Shown here: positions 3,404 to 16,395 of the stretch, piece by piece
Layout: every line of letters starts with the position of its first letter
Position numbering within the stretch: position 1 is the stretch's first letter
Notes under the pieces: generated by a model
The model's input: the letters and a program-made list of their open reading frames with translations, nothing else
What the model was told of the DNA's origin: nothing
The model's database searches: none
Position numbers and translations under genes: made by a program
Origin: a virus
Length of the DNA: 64,000 nucleotides
Strand: one strand, 5' to 3'
IMG/VR virus record: IMGVR_UViG_3300037451_000035
Span: 10,497 to 74,496 of that record

Positions 3404-4385
3404 GACCACGACCAAACAAAAGACCGCGGCTGACGGCGAACTTCTTTTCAACGCCCAGCCGCAGACAGCCGAGCAAGCCGCGAGCGGGAAAGCCGTCGCG
3501 GTGCGCACGCCCTCGGTTCGTAAGAAATTCCTCGAAAAGGCCGCCGAGCCCGAAAGCCGCGTGGTCCCCATGACCGGCCTCGCCGAAATCCTCGGCGTCT
3601 TCGAGCGGCTGGCGGTGAACAAGGATGTCAATCCCGATTCGCTCGACAAGCTGCTCGCCGTGCAAGAGCGCCTTATCGACCGCAATGCGAAGCTGGCCTT
3701 CGATCAGGCATTCGTCGCCATGACGGCCGAACTTCCTTTGATCCCGAAGCTGGGCCGGATTATCTTTCAAGAAAAAACGACGAGCGGAAGGCGCGACGGC
3801 GATATCGCTCAGAACACGCCGTATCCGAAATGGGAGACGACCGGCGAACTGATAAAGCCGGTTTTGCAAAAGCACGGCTTCGGATTGAGCCATAGAATGA
3901 GTTCGATCATCGAGAACGGCGAGCGGCGCCTTCGCGTCACCGCCCGGCTGATTCATGTTGGCGGCTATACCGACGAGGGTTGCTATTTCGATTTGTTAGC
4001 CGACACGACCGGGAGCAAAAATAATGCCCAGGCCTGGGCGTCTTCCTCGACTTACGCAAAGCGCCATACCGCGTTCGCCGTCCTTGGCCTTCTCACCGAA
4101 GATGACGACGATGATGCAAAAGGCTCCGGCCGCCCCGTCGTCATGGGCGACCCGCTGACCGAGGAAGAACTGGAAAAGATCAAGGAGTTCGGCTCCGCCG
4201 CGCTGTGCAGCGAGCCGGCGCTGGTCTCGCACCTGAATAAGACGCGGCCGAAAGGCCACCCCGAGATCAAAAAGCTCGCCGATCTTCCGCGCTCCCGGTA
4301 CGACGAAGCCGTGCAGGCGATCTCCAGCTACGACGCCAATCGGCGTGCGCGTGAAGCGGATGCCAGCAAGGCCACCCAGAAATGA
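3396..4385 (+). CDS. erf: ERF family single-strand annealing protein
   Basis: AQAWASSSTYAKRHTAFAVLGLLTEDDDDD matches the ERF signature; adjacent exonuclease. Confidence 0.88.
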   Translation: MVKTTTKQKTAADGELLFNAQPQTAEQAASGKAVAVRTPSVRKKFLEKAAEPESRVVPMTGLAEILGVFERLAVNKDVNPDSLDKLLAVQERLIDRNAKLAFDQAFVAMTAELPLIPKLGRIIFQEKTTSGRRDGDIAQNTPYPKWETTGELIKPVLQKHGFGLSHRMSSIIENGERRLRVTARLIHVGGYTDEGCYFDLLADTTGSKNNAQAWASSSTYAKRHTAFAVLGLLTEDDDDDAKGSGRPVVMGDPLTEEELEKIKEFGSAALCSEPALVSHLNKTRPKGHPEIKKLADLPRSRYDEAVQAISSYDANRRAREADASKATQK

Positions 4386-11907: not shown

Positions 11908-12522
11908 ATGAACAGAAAACCCACCGCATGGCGCATTGCCGATACGTTCCTTGAACTGCGGAAAGAGCGCAGGGAAGAACTCGCGAAATTGATCGAAGCC
12001 GAATTGGACGCCACGGCGGAATTGACGGTGCATTCGCTGCGCAATGAACAGCATGTCTTTTTCTATGAGCGCGATTTTTACGTCCTGTCGAATTTTTCGG
12101 CCTTTACCTTGGATTGGAAAGGATGGCGCTTCGATACATCTGAGGCCGCTTATCAGTGGGAGAAATTTGCTCACAAAAACGAGCAAGATATTATAGGTGG
12201 TCACGAATGCGATATTTGCTACGCGATACGCCGCGCGCCGTCCGCTCACCACGCCTTTAAACTTGCAGAAGCATCGGCGGATCGCCGTAGGCCAGATTGG
12301 AATGCTGTTCGTGTTGAAATTATGCGTGACATTTTGCGAGCCAAAGCTAATCAACACGAATACGTCCGCCGAAAGCTTCTTGCGACCGGCGACCGCCAAC
12401 TGATTGAAGATAGCTGGCGCGACGACTTTTGGGGCTGGGGACCTAATCGCGACGGCCAAAATATGCTGGGCAAGCTTTGGATGGAGGTTCGGAATGAACT
12501 CCGACCCGCAAAAGCCGCCTAG
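11908..12522 (+). CDS. NADAR (YbiA-like) family N-glycosidase, IS passenger
   Basis: LSNF, TSEAAYQWEKF, RPDW...IM...LRAK..QH...LLATGDRQLIEDS..DDFWG.G....GQNMLGKLWMEVR. Confidence 0.92.
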   Translation: MNRKPTAWRIADTFLELRKERREELAKLIEAELDATAELTVHSLRNEQHVFFYERDFYVLSNFSAFTLDWKGWRFDTSEAAYQWEKFAHKNEQDIIGGHECDICYAIRRAPSAHHAFKLAEASADRRRPDWNAVRVEIMRDILRAKANQHEYVRRKLLATGDRQLIEDSWRDDFWGWGPNRDGQNMLGKLWMEVRNELRPAKAA

Positions 12523-12631
12523 CGTTCTCGACGCTATCGCCGACCGGGTGTTGCGGTACCGGCCCAAGCCCAAATCGAAGCCAGCGAAGCGGCGCAAGCG
12601 TCGCGCGGCCAAAATCGAGCGGTCAAAATGA
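12494..12631 (+). CDS. Small basic ORF at the IS right end
   Basis: MNSDPQKPPSVLDAIADRVLRYRPKPKSKPAKRRKRR; GGAGG RBS. Confidence 0.5.
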   Translation: MNSDPQKPPSVLDAIADRVLRYRPKPKSKPAKRRKRRAAKIERSK

Positions 12632-12651
12632 GGGCAGGGAGTCATGTATAT

Positions 12652-13128
12652 CATGCTTATCCGGTTGCCACACACAAACGCTGAGACCTACTAGATATAG
12701 GAGCTAAAAATGGGTCACCACGGTTCGGAAGAAATGTCGTCGGAAATGCAGCAAAAGCTTGAGGATGCCCTGAAGCGCGACAAAGAGGACGGCGTTCTGC
12801 GCAAGCAATTAGCGGCCGAAAGCCCGCAGTTCGGCGCGAGCGGCAAATATCCCATGGGCAAGCTCGACAAATCCGATGAGGGCGAGATTACGTTCGGAAT
12901 TGCCTCGCATTGGGGCAAAGTCATCATCAATTTCGGCAAACCAGTGGCTTGGTTAGGCATGGATGCCGCGCAAGCAATTGCTTTGGCCGCGTCTCTTTTG
13001 GAGCACGCCCACCGCTGCCGCGATATTGGCCGCGAGCATAGGACGGAAAGCAAAGCCACGAGCGGCGAAACCCAGCCGGTGTCATGACCACAAGATGTAG
13101 GGCTGTGTGTCTAAACCGGATAAGCATG
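12652..13128 (+). mobile_element. Non-autonomous IS1595-family (ISSod11-group-like) insertion cassette
   Basis: IRs CATGCTTATCCGGTTgccACACACA / CATGCTTATCCGGTTtagACACACA (22/25); 8-bp duplication ATGTATAT at 12644-12651 and 13129-13136; no transposase. Confidence 0.9.
12710..13087 (+). CDS. Hypothetical passenger protein
   Basis: AGGAG RBS; FGASGKYPMGKL...DEGEI.FGI...VIINFGKPVAWLGM. Confidence 0.75.
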   Translation: MGHHGSEEMSSEMQQKLEDALKRDKEDGVLRKQLAAESPQFGASGKYPMGKLDKSDEGEITFGIASHWGKVIINFGKPVAWLGMDAAQAIALAASLLEHAHRCRDIGREHRTESKATSGETQPVS

Positions 13129-13143
13129 ATGTATATAATTCCC

Positions 13144-13328
13144 TTATTGAGCGCCTAGCTGGCCTCAAAGGAACGTGGCATTGGGGCCATACTAAAATTC
13201 ACCCCTGGATTTACGTAGAGGATCGCGATCTTATCGTGCGGGCGCTGCGAAAACTAATCCAAACCGATGGTGAGGATCAACGGACGCTTATACCGTTCGT
13301 TCACACTCATAGCGGCGGCGACAGTTAA
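13144..13328 (+). pseudogene. 3' fragment of a gene truncated by the IS right end
   Basis: Open frame LIERLAGLK... starts at the IS boundary; the only upstream start lies inside the IR. Confidence 0.4.
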
Positions 13329-13357
13329 GCGATCAGACTGAAACAGGGAGCAAACAA

Positions 13358-13735
13358 ATGACCGACTTACTGGAACGGCTGATCGAGGAAGCGCGGCTGC
13401 ATGGCCGCGCGGCGCTGGAGCGTGAGAATGCAATTGCCGCGCTGGAGAACTCCGGCAGAGGATTGGCCAAGACCGTCGAGGCGCTGGAGAATCTTCGAAT
13501 CGCACACGGCACATTGCTGAAAACCACCGAGGCATTGCGCGACGAACTGCACGAATCGCGCACTCGCGAGCAGGCTGGCATCGTCGCCCTTCGCGATATG
13601 AACGCGAGCATCGAGAAATACATCTGGCGTGTGCAAAAAGAGCACGGCAAAAAATCCGCCCGCGATCGAGTCGGCGAACTCGTCCTTGCCAAAGCCGCGG
13701 CTGACAAAACGATTAAATCATTCGTGCCGTTCTGA
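13358..13735 (+). CDS. Coiled-coil hypothetical protein
   Basis: AAACAGGGAG RBS; MTDLLERL. Confidence 0.65.
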   Translation: MTDLLERLIEEARLHGRAALERENAIAALENSGRGLAKTVEALENLRIAHGTLLKTTEALRDELHESRTREQAGIVALRDMNASIEKYIWRVQKEHGKKSARDRVGELVLAKAAADKTIKSFVPF

Positions 13736-14196
13736 TGCCGCGTCTGCCGCGCCCGAACATTCCGCTCGCCGTCCGCGTCAAGGTGGCGGAACGGCAACTG
13801 CGCGAAGTCCATCCGCTCGCGGCGAGCATTCTTTACGGGTTGGACGAGCCGATGCCGCTCGGCCGGCGCCTTCAGAGATTGTTGGTTGCGATCTTCGGCA
13901 AAGCGAAAATCGAATTGCATCATCGGCCCGCGTTGGTCAATCGCCGCCGATACGTGCGTAGCGGCAAGGTCTTTTACGATCCGCCGGCGAACGACCCGAA
14001 CCATCTGGTCTATTTGCCCGAGGACGATCACGACATCGAGACTCGCGTGCGCGGCTTGCACGGCCAGCACAGCGATCTCGGGCTGGTCCGAAAACGCAAG
14101 CGCAAGGAGCGGAAGGCGAAGCGACCGAAAACCAGATGGCCGTCGCGTCCATTGCAGAGCGCGAGCCGATGGCCGACGAAGAGGAAAATGCGATGA
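13735..14196 (+). CDS. HNH-like protein with basic tail
   Basis: IELHHRPAL...ANDPNHLVYL..DDHDIET. Confidence 0.6.
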   Translation: MPRLPRPNIPLAVRVKVAERQLREVHPLAASILYGLDEPMPLGRRLQRLLVAIFGKAKIELHHRPALVNRRRYVRSGKVFYDPPANDPNHLVYLPEDDHDIETRVRGLHGQHSDLGLVRKRKRKERKAKRPKTRWPSRPLQSASRWPTKRKMR

Positions 14197-14348
14197 GCAA
14201 ACAGACAATAGGCCCGCGAGAATTTGAACTCCGGCGCCAGCGCGAAGCGGACGCGAAAGCCAAGCCGAAGCCGCTGGCGGATATCACGGCGGAATTGCCG
14301 AAGCCGTCAGGGCGAAAGCCGGTCAAGAGAAAGCGGCCGCACAAATAG
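14193..14348 (+). CDS. Small basic protein
   Basis: ATGA-coupled MSKQTIGPREFELRRQRE. Confidence 0.5.
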   Translation: MSKQTIGPREFELRRQREADAKAKPKPLADITAELPKPSGRKPVKRKRPHK

Positions 14349-14355
14349 CCGAGCC

Positions 14356-14660
14356 ATGGACGGCCGCTCGACCCTCGCCGAGATCAGTGCCGCGGTGTCA
14401 CTACGATGCTTGCTCCGCTCGGCGCAAAAACTTGGGACTATCTCGACAAGAGACGCGCGATGGTCCAACGCCAAGGAATCAATCGCGTGCGGCCAGCGAT
14501 GCGTGCGGGCTGGAAAGCAACCTTCGAAGTGATGGTGCTTTTACCAGAGTACATCGATCGCAATATCCTGCGTGAGACTATTGAGGCGGCTGGCCGTCTC
14601 TGCGGCGTCGGTGATTATCGACCGACGTTCGGTCGATTCGGAATTGTTAAGTTCAAATAG
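14356..14660 (+). pseudogene. C-terminal fragment of a putative RAMP/Cas7-like phage protein
   Basis: LAPLG..WDYLDKRRAMVQRQGINRVRPAMRAGWKATFE...AGRLCGVGDYRPTFGRF has a C-terminal Gly-rich loop; no clear RBS; probable 1-nt deletion near 14404. Confidence 0.55.
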
Positions 14661-14789
14661 GCGCGATGAGGCGGGGTGAGCTATGGTGTGGTCCGGCAAG
14701 GTCCGGCGTGGTGGGGTTGGGTCCGGTGCGGTACGATGCGGTTAGGTTGGGCGGGCTTGGGTGGGGCGTGGTAAGGTACGGTCTGGCCT
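14660..14789 (+). repeat. Array of 26 in-phase pentamers GGY-NN (candidate guide ncRNA)
   Basis: 22 units start GGC/GGT, 2 GAT and 2 GCT; the last two bases vary; the array starts at the stop codon of the upstream gene. Confidence 0.92.
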
Positions 14790-15280
14790 TCATTCTCTGA
14801 AGGCGATGGCGCCGCTTACCGGACGACACTGGGTCCGGACGGCGCCATTGTCGTTTCCCGATTCGATCATCCAAGTCCCGGCCGGGCATTCTCCGGCGAC
14901 GATCTCCCCGACGTGGTGCGACCAAACGACGATAACCCCCGAATGAGGGCCAGCGGCGGCGTGACCCCAATGCGCCCAATTCCGCGCCAAATTGTAGGCC
15001 GGGTCTGATTCGTGCCTTTGCTGGCGCATGTACCAACCGCACCACTCGCGCGGACGGCCATCGCCGCGCTCTTCAGGCGCTCGCAGGCTCACGTTCGCCA
15101 GCGCCGCCCCGGAGGCGCGGAAGGAGGCGGCCACGCTATGGGCAAAGCCCTGGAGCGCGCCGCCTATGGCTTCGGCAAGGCTTGGAGGCTCGGGCTTGCG
15201 GTGCCGGGCTTCGGCCGAGCCGGCGAGAATCAGGAGCACGACGCCGGCCGCAAAAATGACCCGGCAATCGAGCCGGGTCA
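14790..15280 (-). CDS. Secreted CHAP/NlpC-like peptidoglycan hydrolase
   Basis: Signal peptide then WCGWYM...YNLARNWAHWG...VIVVWSHHVG...SGND (Cys/His dyad); start uncertain. Confidence 0.6.
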
Positions 15281-15327
15281 GTATGGGGAGGTTCCGCCCA
15301 AGTAGGGCGAGACTGTACGCGAACAGC

Positions 15328-15822
15328 CTACGCCGTATTGCTCGGCTCGGCAAATCCGGTGATGCCGGCGAGCCGAACGTCGCTGGAATGGCGGAGGGGA
15401 TCGTCGCTCGCATCGTCTTCCTCCATATAGCGGCGCCGCGGTAGCGGCTGGAATGCCGGCGGCATCGTCTTGTCCCTGGCCGCATTCCGAAGATGAAGTT
15501 GCCATAGCTCCCGATAGATGATCTCAAAGCGGTCGTCGTCCTCGCGATTGTGCCGGGACATGACATAGCGGAAATCCTTCGCGACGGCGGCGATCGCTTT
15601 CATTATCTCGTCTTTTACGGAATAGGTCAGCGCCCGATTGTTCGATAGCTGGCGCAGGATGAAGATCGTCACGACCGCCGTCAGCGTCGAGGCGGCGACG
15701 ATGGCGCCGGCGAGCCACGCCAACAAGCCCTGAGTGACGGGGATATCAGCGGCCGAGGACGCAGCGGGAGCGAGCGGAGCTGCGGCGGCGATCGTCAAAA
15801 GCAGCATTCCGCCATTCCCCAA
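15328..15822 (-). CDS. Membrane protein (lysis region)
   Basis: TM segment LLAWLAGAIVAASTLTAVVTIFIL. Confidence 0.55.
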   Translation of the reverse strand: MGNGGMLLLTIAAAAPLAPAASSAADIPVTQGLLAWLAGAIVAASTLTAVVTIFILRQLSNNRALTYSVKDEIMKAIAAVAKDFRYVMSRHNREDDDRFEIIYRELWQLHLRNAARDKTMPPAFQPLPRRRYMEEDDASDDPLRHSSDVRLAGITGFAEPSNTA

Positions 15823-15906
15823 CCCATAGCTTTCGACACTTTAGTACCATGACCAAAGTCTCGTCACACTCCTTCGAAAGTCCCGGTACTAAAGTATTGG
15901 AGGCAA

Positions 15907-16395
15907 TCACGTCCTCCGATCCGACAAGATCAAACCTAGTTCAGCGATTCGATCCCTGGCACTTTTCAGAGCAGCAAGCGCCTCGACCGTGGGCTCCGAT
16001 CCGGCGGCTTTTTTCAGCTCGATCAATTCTTGCAGCGCTGCGGCCTCACGAACGGCCGAGCCGTATTCGCCTTGCATCGATGCCGTCAAATTGCTGTTGA
16101 CGAGGCCGTGGATGGTATCGAGCGTCTTCTTGGATTCCTTGGCCGTCTCGGCAACCTCAGCCGTATTGATCGCCAGCAACCTTGCCGCTTCGGCGGCCTT
16201 TCCAGCCGCTGCGTCCTGGCGCTCGACCAGAAGCTCCGCGGCCTCTGCGGCTTGCCTCGCAACTTTGTCCAGACGCTCGTAATCCTCAGCCTTTTCCTTG
16301 CGCCTGTTTCGGCTGTTCAAGGCGGAGAGTAGGAGCGGGGCAACCGTGCTTGAGACTCCGCCCACGATGACTGCCACTAAAACGGTGTCCGGCAT
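15907..16395 (-). CDS. Membrane-anchored coiled-coil protein
   Basis: N-terminal hydrophobic helix, GGAGGG RBS. Confidence 0.6.
   Translation of the reverse strand: MPDTVLVAVIVGGVSSTVAPLLLSALNSRNRRKEKAEDYERLDKVARQAAEAAELLVERQDAAAGKAAEAARLLAINTAEVAETAKESKKTLDTIHGLVNSNLTASMQGEYGSAVREAAALQELIELKKAAGSEPTVEALAALKSARDRIAELGLILSDRRT

What the first reader, a model, noticed from the sequence alone, without database searches (positions are those of the whole stretch)
14356..14789. GGY-NN pentamer array fused to a RAMP/Cas7-like gene: candidate RNA-guided system with a gapped code
Seen: from the stop codon at 14660 there are 26 perfectly phased 5-mers. Position 1 is always G, the first three bases are GGY in 22 of 26 (GAT x2, GCT x2), and the last two bases vary freely: GC GA GG GA AT GT CC AA CC GT GG TG CC GC AC GC TA TG GG TG GG GT AA AC CT CT. 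Fixed 3 nt plus variable 2 nt with no indels is not microsatellite behaviour, and a period of 5 is not coding. The upstream ORF ends in a Gly-rich loop (GVGDYRPTFGRF) reminiscent of RAMP/Cas7 proteins. Inference: the array is an RNA coated by one protein subunit per pentamer, with GGY as the handle and NN reading a target non-contiguously (e.g. NNxNNx), perhaps against competing phages. I recall recently reported viral systems of this type (VIPR) but cannot verify that here. This protein copy looks 5'-truncated and frameshifted, so the array may be an orphan or used in trans.
Basis: partly seen in the sequence, partly recalled or inferred. Interest (0 to 1): 0.9.

Follow-up and report, generated by a model that had tools for sequence, protein, structure and literature searches.

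The report
Orphaned VIPR guide array, decapitated vipr
A soil phage carries a genuine VIPR guide-RNA array (26 GGY-NN pentamers), but the Cas7-like Vipr gene beside it has lost its front half, so this is a broken or "solo-guide" copy of an RNA-guided system first described in 2026, not a new kind of system.

Summary
Window 14660-14789 holds 26 phased pentamers, with G at position 1 in all 26, GGY in 22, and variable NN. It is the only such run in the 74.5-kb phage, and shuffled windows come nowhere near it.

The 84-aa ORF is the C-terminal ~88 residues of a ~200-aa family. A profile of that family matches the solved SUSP1 Vipr protein (PDB 36pp, E 8.5e-10). A model of a full-length member resembles only Cas7/Csm3 RAMPs.

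Of 101 dereplicated homologous loci, 93 carry GGY-NN arrays on the gene's strand and 1 on the opposite strand. NN strings differ between loci. This is therefore a VIPR locus (bioRxiv 10.64898/2026.04.26.720920).

The N-terminal ~114 codons are absent from the whole phage. Two soil-metagenome assemblies give the identical junction. The array is as intact as arrays beside complete vipr genes.

No target was found by the published 1-nt-skip rule in any collection searched.

Best reading: an orphaned vrRNA next to a vipr pseudogene. It is either a recent relic or a solo guide that borrows Vipr in trans; solo guides are already described for enterobacterial phages (10.64898/2026.10.15.759431).

It is a new member of a known kind. 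This scan has noted VIPR-type loci on other DNA many times (431 notes).

The parts
14660..14789 (+). vrRNA guide region: 26 tandem GGY-NN units (52 informative NN bases), starting on the last base of the vipr stop codon
   Evidence: Perfect-GGY fraction is 0.85, against a median of 0.77 for arrays of 15 or more units beside intact vipr genes. No predicted structure of its own (z -0.07).
14786..14804 (+). Predicted 3' tail hairpin 1: 7-bp stem and 5-nt loop, beginning inside the last unit
   Evidence: 41-nt fold, z -2.36. Close relatives L072, L074, L104, L111 and L101 also end their arrays in a small GC hairpin. Its function as a tail is inferred.
14805..14849 (+). Predicted hairpin 2 (10 + 6 bp) followed by a weak U-rich stretch. 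Possibly a terminator or second tail element. It lies inside the 3' end of the convergent gene.
   Evidence: the two hairpins together give -40.1 kcal/mol, z -4.07, matched by 0 of 200 shuffles. The consensus terminator scan did not call it.
14397..14660 (+). vipr remnant: homologous to residues ~115-202 of ~200-aa Vipr proteins (thumb, beta3, alpha2, G-loop, beta4). The longest ORF is 14406-14660 (84 aa), with no Shine-Dalgarno sequence visible upstream.
   Evidence: It keeps the equivalents of SUSP1 R138, C173, D177, W178 (here Y) and R179. It lacks the regions holding H17, K33 and E71/M72.
14349..14396 (+). Junction zone between the upstream small gene and the vipr remnant. Faint, non-significant resemblance to the SAMDLFKAG segment in frame +1.
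   Evidence: No repeat or IS end at the junction. The junction is identical in contigs of runs X1 and X2.
14193..14348 (+). Small basic protein gene (51 aa from the ATG that overlaps the upstream stop as ATGA). A similar small gene lies in the vipr neighbourhood of L078.
   Evidence: No family match.
13735..14196 (+). 153-aa gene with an HNH-like motif (a lead only). Homologues lie beside vipr in L072, L074 and L078.
   Evidence: Protein-atlas lead to PF01844 at 0.92. No Pfam, NCBIfam or PHROG hit.
14790..15566 (-). Convergent 258-aa gene with a weak TIGR02594-like C-terminal domain. Its stop codon overlaps tail hairpin 1. It is not part of the system and marks the end of the locus.
   Evidence: No relatives in viral contigs.

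Best explanation
This is a VIPR (Viral Interference Programmable Repeat) locus whose protein gene has been decapitated.

What the parts are. The 26-unit GGY-NN tract plus its 3' hairpins is a vrRNA gene. In intact systems one Vipr protomer binds each pentamer, locks the GGY bases away and presents NN. The NN bases pair with double-stranded DNA while every third target base is skipped, and this silences transcription. That mechanism is published for SUSP1, not shown here. The 84-aa ORF is the C-terminal remnant of vipr: thumb, G-loop and the last strands. The first ~114 codons were lost in a deletion or rearrangement. Those codons encode RRM strand 1, the helical bundle and helix 1, which hold G1, Y3 and the skipped target base.

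Consequence. The phage cannot build its own filament, so the vrRNA is an orphan. It would be transcribed, if at all, by read-through of the upstream + strand genes. It can act only if a compatible Vipr is supplied in trans by a co-resident VIPR-positive phage or prophage.

Shown here: homology, truncation, the array-gene association across the family, an intact array, and no self-target.

Inferred: transcription, loading in trans, and silencing. I put about 55-60% on a recent, still undecayed relic and about 30-35% on a selected solo guide.
For: Identity of the protein:
- The family profile matches PDB 36pp 'SUSP1 Vipr protein' at E 8.5e-10 over 142 positions, with the G-loop motif aligned.
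- tblastn of a full-length member hits the vipr position of 100+ Felixounavirus-type phages.
- The ORF matches phrog_4652.
- The family model's Foldseek hits are all Cas7/Csm3/Cmr.

Truncation:
- More than 485 homologues are ~200 aa.
- One protein and two profiles find only positions ~115-202 anywhere in the complete phage genome.
- DNA homology to three relatives starts at 14397.
- The junction is identical in a 7.3-kb contig (depth 39) and a 72.9-kb contig from two soil runs.

Array-gene association:
- 93 of 101 dereplicated loci have arrays on the gene's strand and 1 on the opposite strand. In 86 the array lies within 400 nt of the gene.
- The first downstream array starts a median of 10 nt after the stop.
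- Across arrays, GGY is conserved (G 98%, G 89%, Y 94%) while NN is near-uniform.

No decay:
- The array's GGY fraction is 0.85, against a family median of 0.77.
- The remnant keeps every family-invariant residue. It is as close to the family consensus as its nearest intact relative, 81.8% each.

Other:
- No self-target: 28/52, against a null of 28.7.
- Published mechanism and published solo vrRNAs.
Against: - No RNA data: no listed run is RNA, so transcription is unproven. No sigma-70-like promoter was called in 12500-15600.
- No target was found anywhere searched, so a guide function is not demonstrated.
- No VIPR-positive partner phage for the same host is known, and the host itself is unknown.
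- The 3' tail is only a prediction. Array ends in the family as a whole fold no better than random 40-mers from the same loci (p 0.96).
- X1 and X2 may be the source samples of this record, so the two assemblies may not be fully independent support for the junction.
Confidence: 0.85

Rival explanations
1. Selected solo vrRNA. The phage lost vipr but keeps the guide because it exploits Vipr made by a co-infecting or resident VIPR-positive element. It could redirect that Vipr to a rival, to the rival's own VIPR locus or to a decoy, as described for VIPR-null Felixounavirus-type phages and SUSP1 satellites.
For: - Solo vrRNAs are documented in 346 dereplicated VIPR-null enterobacterial phages and in satellites.
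- The array here shows no GGY decay and does not match its own genome.
- Compatible Vipr proteins are abundant in metagenomes (485+ homologues, the nearest 87% identical over the remnant).
- The cassette sits on unrelated phage backbones, so donors of the same Vipr clade may well meet this phage.
Against: - No match to the vipr genes, arrays or flanks of 141 relatives: best 31/52, and 12-unit sub-guides scored 18/24 against a null of 18.5.
- No target in IMG/VR seeds, one metagenome seed, or 401 Pseudomonadota genomes.
- The same guide is not seen in any other IMG/VR contig.
- The remnant ORF is equally undecayed, which fits a recent accident as well as it fits selection.
Confidence: 0.32
2. 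The 84-aa C-terminal fragment is itself made and functional. It could be a mini-Vipr, or a dominant-negative cap that binds GGY units or Vipr protomers and poisons a competitor's filament.
For: - The frame is open for 103 codons, with an ATG at the start of the homologous part.
- It retains the thumb arginine and the G-loop D-aromatic-R triad that contact G1 and G2 in SUSP1.
- A few other ~85-aa forms start at the same position, two of them on contigs of about 20 kb (P0124, P0128).
Against: - No Shine-Dalgarno sequence before the ATG.
- It lacks RRM strand 1 (H17), the helical bundle (K33, essential in SUSP1) and helix 1 (the Y3 pocket), so half of the fold is missing.
- Short forms are about 18 against 485+ full-length ones, and most sit on contigs of about 1 kb, so they are probably fragments.
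- Among 141 loci only one other internal truncation exists, L113, and it has a different breakpoint.
Confidence: 0.06
3. Assembly artefact. The real phage has an intact vipr, and the record joins two molecules at about 14397.
For: Metagenome-assembled record. IS- or MITE-like repeats lie 1.2 kb upstream, with many alternative contexts in the reads' contigs (loose ends at 13083-13141).
Against: - Contigs assembled separately from two runs cross 13099-16000 with zero differences, at depths 39 and 17. No loose end or alternative joint lies near 14397.
- No repeat at the junction.
- The missing N-terminal half is nowhere in the 74.5-kb circularly closed record.
Confidence: 0.03
4. The tract is not a guide RNA gene. 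It would be a G-rich structural DNA element (for example G-quadruplex-prone, or a recombination or packaging signal) that only happens to lie by the gene.
For: GG every 5 nt could in principle form two-tetrad quadruplexes. No transcript evidence is available here.
Against: - Strict strand and position coupling to vipr in 93 of 101 loci, across many phyla.
- The fixed-3, free-2 grammar is identical to RNAs shown to co-purify with Vipr and to be reprogrammable.
- Pyrimidine at position 3 in 26/26 units has a structural explanation in the Vipr pocket.
Confidence: 0.02

Closest known systems
VIPR systems (Vipr protein + vrRNA). Experimental exemplar: type II system of Escherichia phage SUSP1. Sources: bioRxiv 10.64898/2026.04.26.720920, 10.64898/2026.04.26.720927, and PDB 36pp.
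   Same: Same protein family by sequence profile, including the G-loop motif and the thumb arginine. Same GGY-NN pentamer grammar. The array lies on the gene's strand and starts at its stop codon. Viral location. The array is followed by a structured 3' end.
   Different: - The vipr gene here lacks its first ~114 codons.
- One array of 26 units, against 9-16 units per vrRNA and four vrRNAs in SUSP1.
- The tail is a pair of simple hairpins, not the SUSP1 pseudoknot (prediction only).
- No vap1-like partner gene was recognised.
- Only about 26-40% identity to SUSP1-type Vipr.
- The type (I-VII) could not be assigned, because the paper's tables are not held.
VIPR-null phages and satellites with solo (orphan) vrRNAs (bioRxiv 10.64898/2026.10.15.759431)
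   Same: A phage without a working vipr that still carries a well-formed GGY-NN array. It has no self-match. It must borrow Vipr in trans to act.
   Different: - The published cases are Felixounavirus-type enterobacterial phages with a clean deletion of about 1.1-1.4 kb removing vipr and vap1, mostly one inherited event. Here an unrelated soil myovirus keeps the 3' two-fifths of vipr, so this is an independent and partial loss.
- Published solo guides often match vipr, rival vrRNAs or satellites. No such match was found here.
Class 1 CRISPR-Cas backbone subunits (Cas7/Csm3/Cmr4 RAMPs) on crRNA
   Same: RRM-thumb-G-loop fold. The family model's best structural matches are Csm3 and type VII Cas7. 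One subunit per fixed-length RNA segment, with periodic base flipping.
   Different: No CRISPR repeat-spacer array and no other cas genes. Period is 5 nt with 3 flipped guide bases, instead of 6 nt with 1. The target is read with gaps.

Membership tests
VIPR system | A protein homologous to experimentally defined Vipr (stand-alone RAMP: RRM core, thumb, G-loop) | tested here: met
   The profile of 31 family members matches PDB 36pp_D SUSP1 Vipr at E 8.5e-10. The window ORF matches phrog_4652 at 5e-14. tblastn hits Felixounavirus vipr. The family model's Foldseek top hits are all Cas7/Csm3 (model pLDDT is only 61.5).
VIPR system | A complete vipr gene able to form the filament (beta1/H17, helical bundle/K33, helix 1, thumb, G-loop) | tested here: not met
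   Only positions ~115-202 of 202 are present in the whole phage genome. The residues needed for G1, Y3 and skip-base contacts in SUSP1 lie in the missing part.
VIPR system | Tandem GGY-NN (YNNGG) units, at least 4, next to vipr on the same strand | tested here: met
   26 units beginning at the stop codon. The same arrangement occurs in 93 of 101 relatives' loci, and 1 has an array on the opposite strand.
VIPR system | GGY conserved and NN hypervariable between loci | tested here: met
   3,568 units from relatives: G 98%, G 89%, Y 94%, then near-uniform NN with all 16 dinucleotides at 3.5-9.6%. Arrays of close relatives differ. This guide occurs in no other IMG/VR contig.
VIPR system | Invariant structured 3' tail after the repeat tract | tested here: inconclusive
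   Two hairpins are predicted directly after the last unit (z -4.07), and close relatives have small hairpins there. No tail is conserved across the family, and array ends fold no better than controls overall.
VIPR system | Accessory vap gene in the operon | tested here: inconclusive
   No neighbour gene is conserved across the 116 loci clustered. An HNH-like gene lies beside vipr here and in 3 relatives, but this is a lead only. The paper's vap definitions are in tables not held.
VIPR system | Viral or proviral location | tested here: met
   74,496-bp IMG/VR record with terminal repeat, rated complete by CheckV. Portal, large terminase, head and tail-sheath genes are present.
VIPR system | vrRNA transcribed and bound by Vipr | not testable with these tools
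   No RNA run is listed for this DNA. This needs sRNA-seq and a pull-down.
VIPR system | Natural target with at least 80% NN match under the 1-nt-skip rule, and no self-target | tested here: inconclusive
   No self-target: 28/52, null 28.7 +/- 1.0. No target was found in relatives' loci, IMG/VR (three 8-unit seeds), JGI metagenomes (one 10-unit seed) or 401 genomes. These searches are seed-limited, so a target with scattered mismatches would be missed.
Solo/orphan vrRNA of VIPR-null phages | Phage genome without a functional vipr but with a well-formed vrRNA | tested here: met
   The difference is that a 3' vipr remnant is still present.
Solo/orphan vrRNA of VIPR-null phages | The guide matches vipr, vrRNAs or satellites of competitors, and a VIPR-positive partner shares the host | tested here: not met
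   No match above the shuffled-guide null in 141 vipr loci. Partner and host are unknown, and finding them is not testable here.
CRISPR-Cas (class 1) | CRISPR repeat-spacer array and multi-gene cas operon | tested here: not met
   No repeat of CRISPR-like period in the window. No Rfam family in 13000-16000. The flanking genes are not cas genes.

The most novel reading that the evidence does not exclude
This would be an independent, non-enterobacterial origin of the 'VIPR-null solo guide' strategy. A soil myovirus deleted the front of vipr but keeps a long 26-unit vrRNA (77-bp footprint) to commandeer Vipr proteins made by rival VIPR-positive phages or prophages of the same host. The retained thumb and G-loop fragment might help as a filament poison. 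That would make guide-only parasitism of VIPR a general feature of phage-phage conflict rather than a peculiarity of one Felixounavirus lineage.
Probability: 0.3. Interest if true: 0.5.

Novelty: new member of a known kind. Interest (0 to 1): 0.3.

Why it matters
VIPR was described only in 2026, and its natural history outside E. coli and Pseudomonas phages is barely charted.

This locus adds a clear member from a soil phage clade. That clade has hundreds of relatives in Phycisphaerae, Beta- and Gammaproteobacteria and other MAGs, and its arrays run from about 10 to 137 units.

The locus also shows a partial gene loss that leaves the guide intact. If the guide is still used, it extends the 'solo vrRNA borrows Vipr in trans' idea to a second, unrelated phage lineage.

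If it is a relic, it is a dated snapshot of how VIPR-null phages arise.

Either way it does not change the concept. The kind of system, its code and the orphan state are already in print.

Tried and rejected
- Pfam and NCBIfam give nothing for the ORF or its neighbours.
- Rfam at E<=1 finds nothing relevant in 13000-16000, so no hammerhead or known RNA.
The contigs of the nearest full-length relatives (P0001, P0003; 85-87% identical) and of the short forms P0124 and P0128 could not be fetched, so the ancestral state of this exact locus could not be reconstructed.
- Target searches by the 1-nt-skip rule all gave nothing above chance:
  - own genome at skips 0-3 (only the trivial self-hit at skip 3);
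  - 116 and then 141 relatives' loci, with the full guide and with 12-unit sub-guides;
  - IMG/VR with three non-overlapping 8-unit seeds: 62 seed hits, none extending beyond 32/52;
  - JGI metagenomes with units 6-15: 2 seed hits, 28-29/52;
  - 401 Pseudomonadota genomes with units 1-13 at up to 3 mismatches.
- Reverse test: 155 guides from relatives against this phage. Best was 20/24, from a 137-unit array, against a per-guide null of 16.8 +/- 0.8 with a maximum of 19.
- The same guide was sought elsewhere in IMG/VR and not found.
- Host identification failed. The porin-like gene has no hit at 1e-10 in 301 Alphaproteobacteria. The IS region has no plasmid hit.
- The downstream gene has no relatives in viral contigs.
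- The carriers of the closest IMG/VR vipr genes lack this phage's portal, so no backbone relative with an intact locus was found.
- No RNA holder is listed for this DNA. Runs X3 and X4 have no cover over 14414-14817. Neither is used as evidence.
- An extension of homology upstream of 14397 in frame +1 (the 'frameshift') is not above dinucleotide-shuffled controls.
- A general enrichment of hairpins at array ends is not supported.

Full report
**Observation.** Reading the window and counting in a script confirm the finding to the base. From 14660, the last base of the TAG stop of the upstream ORF, to 14789 there are 26 in-phase pentamers.
- Position 1 is G in all 26.
- Position 2 is G in 22, A in 2 and C in 2.
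- Position 3 is always a pyrimidine (T 19, C 7).
- Positions 4 and 5 use all four bases.

A simple run-scorer gives this tract 20. Nothing else in the window or in the whole 74,496-bp genome reaches 4 on either strand. One hundred shuffled windows never exceeded 4.5.

**What the protein is.** The 84-aa ORF has more than 485 homologues of about 200-202 aa, and it aligns only to their last ~88 residues.
- A profile of 31 members matches one solved structure in the PDB sequence set, 36pp 'SUSP1 Vipr protein'. The E-value is 8.5e-10 over 142 positions, with the G-loop aligned residue for residue.
- A full-length member finds the vipr position of more than 100 Felixounavirus-type phages by tblastn.
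- The window ORF matches phrog_4652.
- An AlphaFold model of a full-length member is only moderately confident (pLDDT 61.5). Even so, all its best Foldseek matches are Cas7-type RAMPs: Csm3, type VII Cas7 and Cmr.

They define Vipr as a stand-alone RAMP and vrRNAs as GGY/NN repeats with a 3' tail. They also give a 1-nt-skip pairing rule and a one-protomer-per-repeat filament.

**Truncation.** A protein query, the family profile and phrog_4652 each find only positions ~115-202 in the complete phage genome. blastn to three relatives starts at window 14397.

Gapped alignments hint at a further weak resemblance back to the ATG at 14356 in another frame. There is no repeat or IS end at the junction.

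Contigs assembled from two soil runs cross the junction with no differences (7.3 kb at depth 39, and 72.9 kb at depth 17), and there is no alternative joint. These runs may be the record's own sources.

Using the alignment to SUSP1 and the cryo-EM paper:
- The remnant keeps the equivalents of R138 (thumb) and of C173, D177, W178 (here Tyr) and R179 (G-loop).
- It lacks the parts that carry H17, K33 and E71/M72.
- Alone it therefore cannot form the RRM or the pockets for G1, Y3 and the skipped target base. This is an inference.
- No Shine-Dalgarno sequence precedes its ATG.

**Is the array a family trait?** I fetched 116 loci encoding relatives from genomes and IMG/VR.
- Among 101 dereplicated loci, 93 have GGY-NN arrays on the gene's strand and 1 on the other strand. 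In 86 the array lies within 400 nt of the gene.
- The first downstream array starts a median of 10 nt after the stop.
- Over 3,568 units, the fixed positions are G 98%, G 89% and Y 94%. NN is close to uniform.
- NN strings differ even between close relatives, some of which share array ends but differ by blocks of whole units.
- Array length has a median of 15 units (quartiles 11-21) and a maximum of 137. The 26 units here are long but not unusual for this clade, although above the 9-16 reported for type II.

**Array anatomy here.** The repeat tract has no structure of its own (z -0.07). It is followed at once by a 7-bp hairpin that begins in the last unit (14786-14804) and a 16-bp hairpin (14805-14849). 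Together these give z -4.07.

Close relatives also end arrays in small GC hairpins or in a shared AT-rich motif. There is no family-wide tail, and a crude test of all array ends shows no excess folding.

No promoter or canonical terminator is called. The array lies at the end of a run of + strand genes, convergent with a - strand gene whose stop overlaps hairpin 1. Read-through transcription is therefore plausible but unshown. No RNA run is listed.

**Context.** The record is a complete tailed phage with portal, large terminase, head and sheath genes from soil metagenomes. It has a single array and no second Vipr.

The phages that carry the nearest IMG/VR vipr genes do not share its portal. 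The cassette therefore moves between backbones. An HNH-like gene and a small basic gene upstream recur near vipr in three relatives, in a different order. No neighbour is conserved family-wide.

**Targets.** I applied the published rule (NN joined by one wildcard, both strands) and found nothing above shuffled-guide nulls in:
- the phage itself (28/52, null 28.7);
- 141 relatives' loci, with the full guide and with 12-unit sub-guides;
- IMG/VR, through three 8-unit seeds;
- JGI metagenomes, through one 10-unit seed;
- 401 Pseudomonadota genomes.

Guides of relatives do not hit this phage either. The absence of a self-match agrees with the papers' controls. The seed searches would miss targets with scattered mismatches, and the host is unknown.

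**Functional state.** The array's GGY integrity (0.85) is above the median of arrays beside intact genes (0.77). The remnant keeps all family-invariant residues and is as close to the consensus as its nearest intact relative. Either the loss is recent or both pieces are constrained.

Internal truncations are rare. One other was found in 141 loci (L113, at a different breakpoint). Short database forms are few and mostly sit on tiny contigs.

The October 2026 preprint already documents hundreds of VIPR-null phages and satellites with solo vrRNAs that must borrow Vipr in trans. I therefore read this as an orphaned vrRNA next to a vipr pseudogene. My odds are roughly 55-60% for an undecayed relic, about 30-35% for a selected solo guide, and about 6% for a functional C-terminal fragment.

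**Comparison and verdict.** The locus works like, and descends from, a VIPR system. It meets the membership features for protein homology, repeat grammar, NN variability and viral location. It fails the complete-gene feature. It is inconclusive for tail, vap and target.

It is not CRISPR-Cas, because there is no repeat-spacer array and there are no cas genes. The type (I-VII) cannot be assigned without the paper's tables.

It is a new member of a known kind, with the modest twist of an independent, partial vipr loss in a soil phage. This scan has flagged VIPR-type loci on other DNA many times (431 notes in at least 329 genomes).

Noticed in passing
L063:3579-4263; L093:2234-2813, 2823-2972 and 3640-4059; L090:2446-2940: Some relatives carry uninterrupted GGY-NN tracts of 84-137 units beside vipr. 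These are far longer than any single vrRNA described in the main text of the papers. They imply processing, or the 'staggered' architecture.
   Followed up: no
L113:3022-3429: A second internally 5'-truncated vipr (residues ~63-202, 135-aa ORF), with arrays just downstream, inside a 15-kb viral contig. It is an independent breakpoint from the one in the window.
   Followed up: partly
L046 and L107: 2353-2868 (- strand): The only locus type with a large array (about 100 units in four blocks) on the strand opposite to vipr, directly upstream of the gene. Smaller same-strand arrays lie downstream.
   Followed up: no
L072:3600-3819, L074:965-1089, L078:3600-3644: Close relatives share the first and last units and the terminal hairpin of an array but differ by insertions or deletions of whole blocks of units. 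This suggests unit-wise recombination or turnover of guides.
   Followed up: no
window 13083-13141: In all four soil runs this short segment is also found in several other contigs that continue into unrelated sequence on both sides. It behaves as the end of a multi-copy mobile element, consistent with the first-stage IS1595/MITE notes.
   Followed up: partly
window 13409-14057 (run X4): A low-depth contig from another soil sample joins 13409 to 14057 with 27 other letters between. This is a variant lacking most of the 125-aa and HNH-like genes upstream of the locus.
   Followed up: no
L013, L016, L018, L019, L026 (array 3' ends): Phycisphaerae prophage arrays end in a conserved unit followed by a 12-13-bp hairpin with a GAAA or GAGA loop. 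This looks like a clade-specific vrRNA tail or terminator.
   Followed up: no
L012-L035 and similar loci, flanks of vipr: In planctomycete prophages vipr sits in the early replication and recombination module, between a DUF669-like gene and RusA-like and helicase genes. No recognisable dedicated partner gene is present.
   Followed up: partly
window 14653-15045 (-) and 14666-14800 (+): ORFs listed across the array are artefacts of the repeat. Equivalent spurious ORFs 'cluster' across 95 relatives' loci only because they overlap arrays or vipr.
   Followed up: yes
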